A stretch of 64,000 bases of DNA from Candidatus Spechtbacteria bacterium. Its GTDB lineage: Bacteria; Patescibacteriota; Minisyncoccia; Spechtbacterales; JACPHP01. Numbering within the stretch: the stretch's first letter is position 1; each line of letters starts with the position of its first letter. The stretch lies in the NCBI GenBank assembly GCA_016188605.1, contig JACPHP010000012.1, positions 149 to 64,148 on the forward strand. Direction: 5' to 3'. The position numbers and the translations under genes are program-made. The notes under the pieces were generated by a model. That model searched no databases and had not been told where the DNA came from. It saw only the letters and a list, made by a program, of their open reading frames with translations. Positions 21,461-22,463 of this stretch are shown piece by piece.

Positions 21461-21559
21461 GCAAACTTATCCACACCTTCAAAGTCACAGTTAACAATAT
21501 CATCTATCAACGAAGTACAACTACGATTCAGAGGATAGCCGGGATATCCTTTGAATCGA

Positions 21560-22303
21560 TCATTCTGAAATTCTCGAATCAAACTGCGCGTTTTCCGCTT
21601 TAAATAGAACCCAATCATCAATCGCCTGCCTGCATTCTTTCTCGCCGCCGTATAGTTTTAAAAACGAATCGCGCTGTGTCACATCGGGAAATGTAGGATT
21701 ACCAACATAATCATGATAGCTGGACCAGCGATAATGCCCCAGCCAATTTATAGCATTTTTTGCATTTTTGACTTTCAAATCTTTCCATTCCGGTTCTTTT
21801 AATTCCACGGGGTTTGTATGCACATAAACAAAAGTGGTGCGAAGCTGCCCCTCGTCTTTTATTTCAACTGCCTTGTACCGCCCCTGAAATAGAGGACCAA
21901 CGCGATCGTATTGTTGATTAAAATACCTTACATAACCACACATCTTCTGCATAAACGAAGAAGTGCCACCCTCTTTTATCTCGCGAATGATAAAATGAAA
22001 ATGATTCGGCATTAACGCAAAAGCAAGAAGATCGACTAGCCGCTCTCGTTTATCGATCAGCGTATCATCGCCCGCCAGAGGATAGCCGGGATATCCTCTG
22101 GACCCTATGACGGCCAAGGTTTTATCCCTTCTACTCCTTAAATTTGTCCAGATATCAGCTTTCGCGTTCTTGTCATTAAAAAAATACAACCCTAAAATAA
22201 ACCGCGAATAATCTTGCGGCTTCATAAATATCTTGCGCTTTTCTACTCCACGATTTATAACGTGATAAATAGCGCCAATTTGCATGGGTATACGCGCTGG
22301 CAT
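21560..22303 (-). CDS. IS200-like Y1 HUH transposase (REP-associated tyrosine transposase-like) with an internal insertion of about 45 aa.
   Basis: It has YHVINRGVEKRKIF, the HUH motif NHFHFI and the catalytic region RYKAVEI...YVHTNPV. The 22-bp repeat CAGAGGATAGCCGGGATATCCT occurs inside the gene (22076-22097, encoding SRGYPGYPL) and 10 nt past its stop (21529-21550). The hairpin 22351-22392 lies upstream. Confidence 0.7.
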   Translation of the reverse strand: MPARIPMQIGAIYHVINRGVEKRKIFMKPQDYSRFILGLYFFNDKNAKADIWTNLRSRRDKTLAVIGSRGYPGYPLAGDDTLIDKRERLVDLLAFALMPNHFHFIIREIKEGGTSSFMQKMCGYVRYFNQQYDRVGPLFQGRYKAVEIKDEGQLRTTFVYVHTNPVELKEPEWKDLKVKNAKNAINWLGHYRWSSYHDYVGNPTFPDVTQRDSFLKLYGGEKECRQAIDDWVLFKAENAQFDSRISE

Positions 22304-22463
22304 ATTTTTATTACATAGACATTGACCGTATTCCTAATCCTAACACAACGTAGATTCGCTACTAGGGAGTCCCGGCTTCCCTAGCGAATCTAATGAACCT
22401 CCGACCAAATGAAAAGACCCCGCAATTGCGAGGCCTTTACCGTTGCCAACTAGCTAGTGGTTT

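What the first reader, a model, noticed from the sequence alone, without database searches (positions are those of the whole stretch)
21480..22400. RAYT-like Y1 transposase whose REP-like 22-mer occurs both inside its own coding sequence and just past its stop
CAGAGGATAGCCGGGATATCCT contains the small hairpin GGATA-GCCGGGA-TATCC. It lies 10 nt downstream of the transposase stop. It also lies inside the gene, where it encodes SRGYPGYPL within an insertion of about 45 aa absent from canonical IS200 TnpA. A 15-bp-stem hairpin (22351-22392) marks the other side. This suggests a REP/RAYT system in which a REP copy has inserted into, and been tolerated by, the transposase gene itself.
Basis: partly seen in the sequence, partly recalled or inferred. 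Interest (0 to 1): 0.55.

Follow-up and report, generated by a model that had tools for sequence, protein, structure and literature searches.

The report
Transposase-like gene carrying its own hairpin
A single-copy, transposase-like gene of an uncultured ultra-small (CPR) bacterium has the same small DNA hairpin before its start, after its stop and in frame inside its coding sequence, and this layout holds across hundreds of related bacteria, with the hairpin sequence changing in step at all copies in each genome.

Summary
Window 21560-22303 (-) encodes an intact 247-aa Y1/HUH protein whose closest solved fold is E. coli TnpA_REP. The 22-mer is exact at 22076-22097 (inside the gene, encoding SRGYPGYPL in a disordered loop) and at 21529-21550 (9 nt past the stop). 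The upstream hairpin at 22351-22392 is a diverged, inverted third copy.

This is not a one-off REP insertion. In 84 related CPR loci, a lineage-specific palindrome inside the gene matches the 150-nt upstream flank exactly in 63/81 loci. It matches the downstream flank in 57/78. Control windows gave 0-2 matches in 56-65. The in-gene copies sit at two fixed positions with conserved codon phase.

The hairpins are not a high-copy REP family. The rest of the 64-kb window has none, and 569 kb of related flanks hold only 14 distal copies.

By its motifs and flanking repeats the gene is closest to TIRYT (subclass 2.1) Y1 proteins. Two proteobacterial relatives have flanking repeats but no internal copy. 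In-frame REPs inside a tnpA_REP gene were reported before only for subclass 2.4, at a different site. I call this a new variant of a known kind. The mechanism, recognition by the encoded enzyme with homogenisation of copies, is inferred.

The parts
21560..22303 (-). Intact 247-aa Y1/HUH transposase-like gene (TIRYT/RAYT-like, CPR family)
   Evidence: ORF. Pfam Y1_Tnp 26.3 bits. NCBIfam REP_Tyr_transpos 40.2 bits, below its cut-off. More than 1500 homologues of about 236-250 aa. AF2 model pLDDT 85.5. Top PDB fold 4er8_A.
21995..22003 (-). HUH motif, H101-F102-H103 within LMPNHFHF
   Evidence: H101 and H103 are invariant in A1 and A2. Coordinates were read from the sequence.
21824..21826 (-). 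Catalytic tyrosine Y160 of the YVHTNP motif
   Evidence: Y160, N164 and P165 are invariant in A1. Coordinates were read from the sequence.
22037..22174 (-). CPR-family-specific segment of about 45 aa (aa 44-89) between helix alpha-A and the HUH strand. It contains hairpin site 1.
   Evidence: Absent from the R. rubrum and Legionella homologues in A2. Variable in A1. Residues 70-82 have pLDDT below 50.
22075..22101 (.). Internal in-frame hairpin (copy I): 10-bp stem, 7-nt loop, encodes SRGYPGYPLA (aa 68-77)
21524..21558 (.). Downstream hairpin (copy D), starting 2 nt after the stop codon. Its core, 21529-21553, is identical to copy I over 22 nt, or 25 nt with 1 mismatch.
   Evidence: (DNA fold -8.9 and -10.9 kcal/mol on the two strands, z -3.8 and -5.0).
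22351..22392 (.). Upstream hairpin (copy U), 47 nt before the start codon. The core 22362-22384, CTAGGGAGTCCCGGCTTCCCTAG, is a diverged and inverted copy whose stem resembles the hairpin of homologue L091. It is enclosed in an extra 11-bp outer stem.

Best explanation
The locus is a CPR-bacterial version of a REPtron/TIRtron. It is a single-copy, fixed-position Y1 (HUH) single-strand DNA nuclease/transposase gene of the TIRYT / TnpA_Y1 subclass-2.1 type. Its cognate palindromic hairpin tightly brackets the ORF and is also embedded in frame in a disordered surface loop, about 25 aa before the HUH motif. More distant relatives carry a second in-frame copy 14 aa after the catalytic tyrosine.

Shown:
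- the three copies in the window;
- the family-wide conservation of this layout, with fixed in-gene positions and fixed codon phase;
- lineage-specific hairpin sequences that are identical among the copies of one locus;
- compensatory stem changes, including copy-specific ones that keep each copy a perfect palindrome;
- sparse copies elsewhere in the flanking DNA.

Inferred: the encoded enzyme binds, and probably cleaves and rejoins, these hairpins on single-stranded DNA, as TnpA_REP and IS608 TnpA do. The internal copies began as hairpin insertions into permissive loops early in the family. The copies of a locus are kept alike by repeated enzyme-mediated replacement or by short-tract gene conversion. 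The hairpins act as DNA elements, not mRNA elements. In the window's lineage the I and D copies have been homogenised, while U keeps an older stem variant.
For: - Y1 identity.
- Exact repeat and hairpins in the window.
- Homologue at 80% identity (L006): a different hairpin, ACTAGGATATCCCGACCATCCTAGT, sits at the same in-gene site, with one upstream and two downstream copies.
- Close clade (WIN, L006, L087, L089, L090, L091): the U, I and D copies co-vary within each genome.
- Family-wide test on 84 loci: an exact match of at least 13 nt between the gene interior and the 150-nt upstream flank in 63/81 loci, and with the downstream flank in 57/78. Control windows 1.5 and 2.5 kb away gave 0/64, 1/65, 1/57 and 2/56. 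The in-gene positions cluster at HUH-30..-15 aa and HUH+75..+80 aa.
- Codon phase: phase 2 in all 17 loci with at least 49.6% identity. Site 2 is phase 1 in all 18 loci that have it.
- Stem positions show 3-4 Watson-Crick pair types among orthologous hairpins. Outer stems differ between the copies of one locus, yet each copy stays perfectly paired.
- G.T and A.C stem mismatches on the coding strand are equal: 9/11 in U, 4/4 in I, 11/10 in D. This argues for DNA rather than mRNA structure.
- Paralogues in one genome carry different hairpins, each matched to its own flanks.
- The gene sits in the same context in all contigs of a population.
- The R. rubrum plasmid homologue is flanked by inverted repeats containing GGGGTCAGACCCC, the same core as CPR loci L009, L017 and L018, but has no internal copy.
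- The hairpin-encoded residues have pLDDT below 50.
Against: - No biochemical evidence exists. Binding or cleavage of these hairpins by this protein is inferred only from homology to TnpA_REP and IS608 TnpA.
- No conserved nucleotides flank the stems that could mark a cleavage or target site.
- Relative orientation of the U, I and D copies follows no consistent rule.
- The window's U copy has not been homogenised with I and D, so homogenisation is at best intermittent.
- 16 of 84 loci show no flank match; one of them (L006) had flanks too short for the test and is positive.
- The profile of the family finds no PDB sequence at E<=0.01, and the NCBIfam RAYT score is below its cut-off. This is a divergent branch, so its activity may differ.
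- The G.T versus A.C test rests on about 20 mismatches per class.
Confidence: 0.6

Rival explanations
1. Autoregulatory operator sites. The palindromes are double-stranded (or cruciform) binding sites for the protein's helical C-terminal domain, or for a host factor. Copies at the 5' end, inside the gene and at the 3' end would repress or block transcription of the gene, with no DNA cleavage or mobility involved.
For: - The U copy lies a median of 22 nt from the start codon, which leaves little room for a promoter downstream of it. The D copy lies a median of 9.5 nt after the stop.
- The palindromes show no strand bias.
- There are few copies elsewhere.
- Subclass 2.1 tails resemble HTH domains according to PMC6006769.
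- The C-terminal 80 aa of the model are helical.
Against: - The stem sequence varies freely, with compensatory changes at most positions. This fits recognition of a hairpin structure better than base-specific duplex recognition.
- The HUH and Tyr catalytic residues are invariant across the family, so nuclease chemistry is under selection.
- Sparse distal copies do exist in 9 of 51 loci.
Confidence: 0.15
2. mRNA-level structures. The three hairpins are transcribed and control mRNA stability, translation or termination of a gene that must be kept at a low level, as in IS200.
For: - All copies lie within or immediately next to the ORF, so they are probably in one transcript.
- REPs are known from the literature to act as RNA elements (PMC3733652).
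Against: - There is no excess of G.U-compatible over A.C mismatches on the coding strand.
- Copies occur in either orientation.
- No T-run follows the D hairpin, and no terminator-like site was found.
- There is no Rfam match.
- RNA stability or termination would not require the copies to be identical in sequence.
Confidence: 0.08
3. This is an ordinary REP/RAYT system with a large dispersed REP family, one member of which recently landed in the RAYT gene and is tolerated.
For: - The protein is RAYT-like and flanked by its hairpin.
- In-frame REPs inside tnpA_REP are documented for subclass 2.4 (PMC6006769).
- The internal copy lies in a disordered loop.
Against: - The position and codon phase are conserved across the clade and the family.
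- There are no other copies in 64 kb.
- Distal copies are rare in relatives, 1 per about 40 kb.
- The hairpin lacks a GTAG foot.
- The NCBIfam RAYT cut-off is not reached.
Confidence: 0.05
4. Neutral passenger. The internal hairpins have no function. They persist only because nearby flanking copies overwrite them by recombination or template switching, and because the loop tolerates any peptide.
For: - The encoded loop is disordered and variable.
- Some lineages have lost the palindrome with no change in length (for example L007 and L012).
Against: - Each internal copy stays a perfect palindrome even where its outer stem differs from the flank copies.
- Persistence at two fixed sites across divergences down to 38% identity is hard to reconcile with pure neutrality.
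- 22-28-nt repeats are poor substrates for RecA-type conversion (established knowledge).
Confidence: 0.12

Closest known systems
TIRtron / TIRYT (Di Nocera et al. 2013, PMC3733652) = TnpA_Y1 subclass 2.1 (Quentin et al. 2018, PMC6006769) = RAYT Group 1 (Bertels et al. 2017, PMC5581495)
   Same: - Protein of about 240 aa with NH[YF]H, FQ, Y[IV]HxNP and a C-terminal tail carrying the 'SS' (WSSY) motif.
- Gene tightly flanked by inverted or palindromic repeats.
- In many CPR loci the core (GGGGTCAGACCCC, GGGGACAGTCCCC) fits the TIRYT consensus GGGGWSAS. It is identical to the core flanking the R. rubrum plasmid homologue.
- Low copy number of the repeat.
   Different: - The CPR genes carry one to three in-frame copies of the repeat inside the ORF, within CPR-specific insertions. 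The two proteobacterial homologues tested have none.
- Quentin et al. found no REP-like sequences near subclass 2.1 genes.
- The window's own hairpin has a CCSGG loop rather than GGGGWSAS.
TnpA_Y1 subclass 2.4 (RAYT Group 4) with REPs inserted in frame in tnpA_REP (PMC6006769)
   Same: - The cognate palindrome is found both flanking and inside the transposase-like gene without breaking the frame.
- The hairpins are 'double foot', that is fully palindromic.
- The insertion lies in a peripheral loop.
   Different: - Subclass 2.4 proteins are about 194 aa with WQ and YIxNNP, and their insertions lie between HuH and Y.
- Here the sites are before HUH and after Y, the protein signature is that of subclass 2.1, and the sites are conserved in position and phase across a very large CPR radiation.
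E. coli REPtron (TnpA_REP/RayT with REP/BIME; PDB 4er8)
   Same: - Best structural match.
- Single-copy Y1 gene flanked by its cognate hairpins.
   Different: - E. coli REPs number in the hundreds, are extragenic and have a GTAG foot.
- The window has no dispersed copies in 64 kb, no GTAG foot, and an intragenic copy.
- Sequence similarity is too low for the NCBIfam cut-off or a PDB profile hit.
IS200/IS608 insertion sequences
   Same: - HUH/Y1 fold.
- Subterminal hairpins at both ends of the transposase gene.
   Different: - The Y-motif is YxxxNP, not YxxxQ.
- The gene is not multi-copy and has a fixed genomic context in populations.
- There is an extra 80-aa C-terminal domain.
- A hairpin lies inside the ORF.
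Rickettsia palindromic elements (RPE) and intragenic REPs
   Same: Palindromic repeats inserted in frame into protein-coding genes and tolerated in surface loops (cited in PMC3733652).
   Different: RPEs are scattered over many unrelated genes and are not tied to a cognate nuclease gene. Here the host gene is the putative cognate enzyme itself, and the copy co-varies with that gene's flanks.

Membership tests
Y1 HUH transposase superfamily (Pfam PF01797) | Score at or above the Pfam gathering threshold | tested here: met
   26.3 bits against 23
Y1 HUH transposase superfamily (Pfam PF01797) | HUH motif and a single catalytic Tyr on the following helix | tested here: met
   H101, H103 and Y160 are invariant in A1 and A2
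Y1 HUH transposase superfamily (Pfam PF01797) | TnpA-type fold | tested here: met
   Foldseek top hits are 4er8_A, 2a6m and 2vjv with probability 1.00. The model has pLDDT 85.5.
RAYT / TnpA_REP (NCBIfam NF047646 equivalog) | Score at or above the curated cut-off (80 bits) | tested here: not met
   40.2 bits
RAYT / TnpA_REP | Y-x-x-x-N-P tyrosine motif (class 2 signature, PMC6006769) | tested here: met
   YVHTNP at aa 160-165
RAYT / TnpA_REP | Gene flanked by its cognate palindromes (REPtron arrangement) | tested here: met
   U copy at 22351-22392 and D copy at 21524-21558. Upstream flank 63/81 and downstream flank 57/78 in relatives.
RAYT / TnpA_REP | Abundant dispersed REP/REPIN population in the same genome | tested here: inconclusive
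   No copies in the other 63 kb of the window. 14 distal copies in 569 kb around 51 relatives. The whole genome is not available.
RAYT / TnpA_REP | GT[AG]G tetranucleotide at the 5' foot of the hairpin | tested here: not met
   The window hairpins start CCAGAGG or CTAGGG. Only some relatives (L018-L020) have GTAG within the stem.
TIRYT / TnpA_Y1 subclass 2.1 | Signature NH[YF]H, FQ, Y[IV]HxNP, 'SS' tail motif, length about 238 aa | tested here: met
   NHFH, LFQGRYK, YVHTNP, WSSY and 247 aa, compared with Table 1 of PMC6006769. This is a comparison by motif only. The subclass HMMs are not available.
TIRYT / TnpA_Y1 subclass 2.1 | Flanking inverted repeats with the GGGGWSAS motif | tested here: inconclusive
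   Met in many related CPR loci (L008-L011, L014, L015, L017, L018) and in R. rubrum. The window's own repeat has the core GGATATCCCGGCTATCC instead.
TnpA_Y1 subclass 2.4 (in-gene REPs) | WQ and YIxNNP motifs, about 194 aa, REP insertion between HuH and Y | tested here: not met
   FQ, YVHTNP and 247 aa. The insertion sites are 25 aa before HUH and 14 aa after Y.
IS200/IS605 insertion sequence | Several near-identical copies in different contexts; YxxxQ motif | tested here: not met
   One copy in 64 kb. The context is the same in 4 contigs, and for P0086 in 10 places. The motif is YxxxNP.

The most novel reading that the evidence does not exclude
The in-frame hairpins are working cis-elements, not passengers. 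The Y1 enzyme acts on hairpins inside its own coding sequence, either replacing them in situ (hairpin-cassette conversion that keeps the U, I and D copies identical) or using them for self-limitation. On this reading the family is a natural, phylogenetically deep record of RAYT-type enzyme activity on a defined three-to-five-site substrate, in organisms that lack a large REP population.
Probability: 0.3. Interest if true: 0.75.

Novelty: new variant of a known kind. Interest (0 to 1): 0.6.

Why it matters
How REP/REPIN hairpins are moved and kept in step with their cognate Y1 enzymes is still largely inferred. Work is hampered by the hundreds of copies per genome.

This CPR family offers a minimal system: one gene with three to five cognate hairpins, all within about 1 kb. 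There are hundreds of independent lineages, about 834 clusters at 50% identity at E<=1e-30. In them the hairpin has changed, yet the copies of each locus have stayed identical.

That makes three questions directly testable by comparative genomics and with a single purified protein:
- enzyme-hairpin co-evolution;
- concerted evolution of short palindromes;
- tolerance of palindromes within coding sequence.

It also extends flanking-repeat ('TIRtron') biology to Patescibacteria. It shows that subclass-2.1-like Y1 genes can carry their repeats internally, which was previously described only for subclass 2.4.

Tried and rejected
- A profile search of A1 against PDB sequences found nothing at E<=0.01. 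The fold search was needed instead.
- A scan of JGI metagenome contigs for the 20-nt core found one hit, inside an unrelated ORF of a high-GC contig. I judged it to be chance. The window's organism is therefore not in that collection. It is not among the GTDB representatives either, where the best hit is 57% identity. A genome-wide copy count was therefore impossible.
- Rfam gave no family in 21300-22700. The terminator scan found none. The D hairpin is therefore not an intrinsic terminator or a known RNA.
- I tested whether the giant neighbouring proteins of WIN, L087 and L090 are homologous, as a synteny or mobility clue. They are not.
- I looked for conserved nucleotides just outside the stems that could mark a cleavage or target motif. 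There are none beyond A/T richness.
- I looked for an orientation rule among the U, I and D copies. There is none.
- A first automatic 'best palindrome' picker chose trivial A/T palindromes in some loci, for example L005 and L006. I replaced it with the exact-match test with controls.
- The 54-aa ORF at 21457-21621 reads the D copy as GYPGYPL. I treated it as spurious, because there is no similarity beyond the hairpin.

Full report
**Observation.**
- The window carries a 247-aa ORF on the minus strand, 21560-22303.
- The 22-mer CAGAGGATAGCCGGGATATCCT is exact at 22076-22097, inside the ORF, and at 21529-21550, 9 nt beyond the stop codon. No other copy exists in the 64 kb, even with three mismatches. 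The chance expectation is 0.00.
- The internal copy is the centre of a 27-nt hairpin at 22075-22101, with a 10-bp stem and a 7-nt loop. It encodes SRGYPGYPLA.
- The downstream copy sits in a longer hairpin at 21524-21558.
- The upstream hairpin at 22351-22392 is real (DNA fold -12.1 kcal/mol, z = -4.1). Its loop contains the reverse complement of the 22-mer's AGCCGGGA loop.
- A scan for hairpins with a CCSGG loop and a perfect stem of at least 6 bp finds exactly three in the whole window, and these are the U, I and D copies. Shuffled sequence gives a mean of 0.28. The locus therefore has three related hairpins, not two.

**The protein.**
- Pfam Y1_Tnp is above its threshold, 26.3 bits against 23. 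The NCBIfam RAYT equivalog is hit but below its cut-off, 40 bits against 80.
- HUH (H101, H103) and Y160 in YVHTNP are invariant among homologues.
- An AlphaFold model (pLDDT 85.5) finds E. coli TnpA_REP bound to a REP hairpin (4er8) as the best solved structure, followed by the IS608 and ISDra2 TnpA structures. A sequence profile of the family finds nothing in the PDB, so this is a divergent branch.
- Residues 70-82, which include most of the hairpin-encoded peptide (aa 68-77), have pLDDT below 50.

**The family.**
- More than 1500 homologues of about 236-250 aa were found. Where a source names them, they come from Patescibacteria (CPR).
- A full HMM search gives 834 clusters at 50% identity with E<=1e-30.
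It is missing in proteobacterial plasmid homologues (A2).

**The key comparative result.**
- The 80%-identical homologue (L006) has, at the same place in the gene, a different hairpin, ACTAGGATATCCCGACCATCCTAGT, which encodes LGYPDHPS. Exact copies of it lie 35-40 nt upstream of the start and twice downstream of the stop.
- The six closest loci (WIN, L006, L087, L089, L090, L091) all have a hairpin of the CTAGG...CCSGG...CCTAG type. Its stem differs between genomes but is shared by the U, I and D copies of each genome.
- I tested this on 84 non-redundant loci, of which 80 came from GTDB genomes. An exact match of at least 13 nt between the gene interior and the 150 nt upstream occurs in 63/81 loci. 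With the 150 nt downstream it occurs in 57/78. Same-sized control windows 1.5 and 2.5 kb away gave 0/64, 1/65, 1/57 and 2/56.
- The matched in-gene segments cluster at two places. One lies 15-30 aa before the HUH motif (site 1). In relatives with no more than 45% identity, a second lies 75-80 aa after HUH, which is 14 aa after the catalytic Tyr (site 2). One locus has a third copy near the C-terminus.
- The codon phase of the palindrome centre is conserved. It is phase 2 in all 17 loci with at least 49.6% identity and mostly phase 0 in the distant clade. It is phase 1 in all 18 loci that carry site 2. The same palindrome is thus read as IEVxPRY at site 1 and as YRGSTSI at site 2.

**Nature of the hairpins.**
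- Orthologous hairpins show three to four different Watson-Crick pair types at most stem positions. A few positions are fixed, namely C-N-G at the centre and A-G/C-T at offsets 9 and 8 in the window's clade. The hairpins in that count were selected as perfect stems, so the variety of pair types is the informative quantity, not the percentage paired.
- The copies of one locus often differ in their outer stem, yet each copy remains a perfect palindrome, the coding one included.
- Stem mismatches on the coding strand are as often A.C as G.T: U 11/9, I 4/4, D 10/11. Copies occur in either orientation. No terminator-like site or Rfam family is present. These points favour a DNA-level rather than an mRNA-level element.
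- No conserved nucleotides flank the stems.
- The U copy ends a median of 22 nt before the start codon. The D copy begins a median of 9.5 nt after the stop and sometimes overlaps it.

**Not a dispersed REP family.**
- Beyond the locus there is no copy in the window.
- Around 51 relatives with a well-defined core there are 14 distal copies in 569 kb, found in 9 loci. By contrast there are about three copies within each locus of about 1.1 kb.
- The 20-nt core occurs once in JGI metagenome contigs, inside an unrelated ORF on a high-GC contig, which I take as chance.
- The gene is not IS-like. It lies in the same context in four contigs of its population. Another family member, P0086, lies in the same PIN - Y1 - bAvd context in ten places.
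- Paralogues within one genome (L016/L021 and L060/L086) carry different hairpins, each matched to its own flanks. The repeat is therefore specific to the gene and not a genome-wide host motif.

**Comparison with what is known.**
- Quentin et al. 2018 (PMC6006769) divide TnpA_Y1 proteins into subclasses.
- The present family's signature is NH[YF]H, FQ, Y[IV]HxNP, a WSSY 'SS' tail and about 240 aa. This matches their subclass 2.1, which corresponds to Bertels' Group 1 and to the TIRYTs of Di Nocera et al. 2013. They found no REPs for that subclass.
- Di Nocera et al. described TIRYT genes flanked by inverted repeats sharing GGGGWSAS (PMC3733652).
- Many CPR hairpins (GGGGTCAGACCCC, GGGGACAGTCCCC) fit that motif. 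A 26%-identical homologue on the R. rubrum plasmid is flanked by TTAAAAGGGGTCAGACCCC and its inverse, but has no internal copy. The same holds for a Legionella homologue.
- Relative to these two proteins, the CPR family has two insertions, exactly where sites 1 and 2 lie.
- In-frame REPs inside a tnpA_REP gene have been reported, but for subclass 2.4, between HuH and Y, and as a 'unique feature' of that subclass.
- Four full-text searches found no description of this arrangement in CPR or in subclass 2.1. The library searched is limited to open-access PMC papers and bioRxiv.

**Interpretation.**
It is wrong in history and scale.
- The internal copy is an ancient, positionally fixed feature of a very large CPR family. 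It evolves in concert with the flanking copies. There is no sign of a large REP population.
- I infer that the encoded Y1 enzyme recognises these hairpins on single-stranded DNA. I also infer that the copies of a locus are kept alike by enzyme-mediated replacement or by short-tract conversion.
- In the window, I and D have been homogenised, while U retains a stem like that of the 67%-identical homologue L091.
- The rivals cannot be excluded without biochemistry. They are duplex operator sites for autoregulation, mRNA structures, and neutral passengers overwritten from the flanks.

**Verdict.**
- This is a new variant of a known kind: a TIRYT/RAYT-type locus with conserved, co-evolving in-frame copies of its cognate palindrome.
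- Interest is moderate to high (0.6), mainly because the family offers a compact, replicated natural system for studying the co-evolution of Y1 enzymes and their hairpins.

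Noticed in passing
window 22406-22445: A second palindrome between the upstream 178-aa ORF and the U hairpin. On the coding strand it reads GGCCTCGCAATTGCGGGGTC followed by TTTTCATTT. It looks like the intrinsic terminator of the upstream gene, although the consensus scan did not call it. The close homologues L006, L089 and L091 have the same layout: a terminator-like hairpin, then the U hairpin, then the gene.
   Followed up: partly
L093-L102 (loci of P0086): This family member always lies between a PIN-domain gene with a 66-aa partner (a toxin-antitoxin-like pair) and a bAvd gene, the accessory protein of diversity-generating retroelements. 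L101 has a second Y1_Tnp gene 1 kb upstream on the opposite strand.
   Followed up: no
L103 (R. rubrum plasmid NC_007641) 735-747, 1446-1464, 2212-2230: The annotated 'transposase' is flanked by perfect 19-nt inverted repeats containing GGGGTCAGACCCC. A third copy of the 13-nt core lies about 750 nt upstream, between two convergent genes. The core is the same as in distant CPR loci.
   Followed up: partly
window 15801-20885 (-): A giant 1694-aa secreted-looking protein with SNase and lamin-tail (LTD) domains lies two genes downstream of the Y1 gene. Unrelated giant proteins also neighbour the Y1 gene in L087 and L090.
   Followed up: partly
window 21457-21621 (-): A 54-aa ORF, called as a gene in the Logan contigs, overlaps the end of the Y1 gene and reads the downstream hairpin in the frame that again gives GYPGYPL. 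It is probably spurious.
   Followed up: no
L015 +1224..+2023; L085 +867..+907; L081 +9699; L080 +3452: Some of the rare distal hairpin copies fall inside long ORFs of 183-2120 aa belonging to other genes. In-frame carriage of these palindromes may therefore not be restricted to the Y1 gene.
   Followed up: no
window clade hairpins (WIN, L006, L087-L091, L008-L020): All 16 hairpins compared share fixed bases at the centre (C-N-G) and at offsets 8 and 9 (G:C and A:T), while the positions between them co-vary. These fixed bases are candidates for base-specific contacts or a cleavage motif.
   Followed up: no
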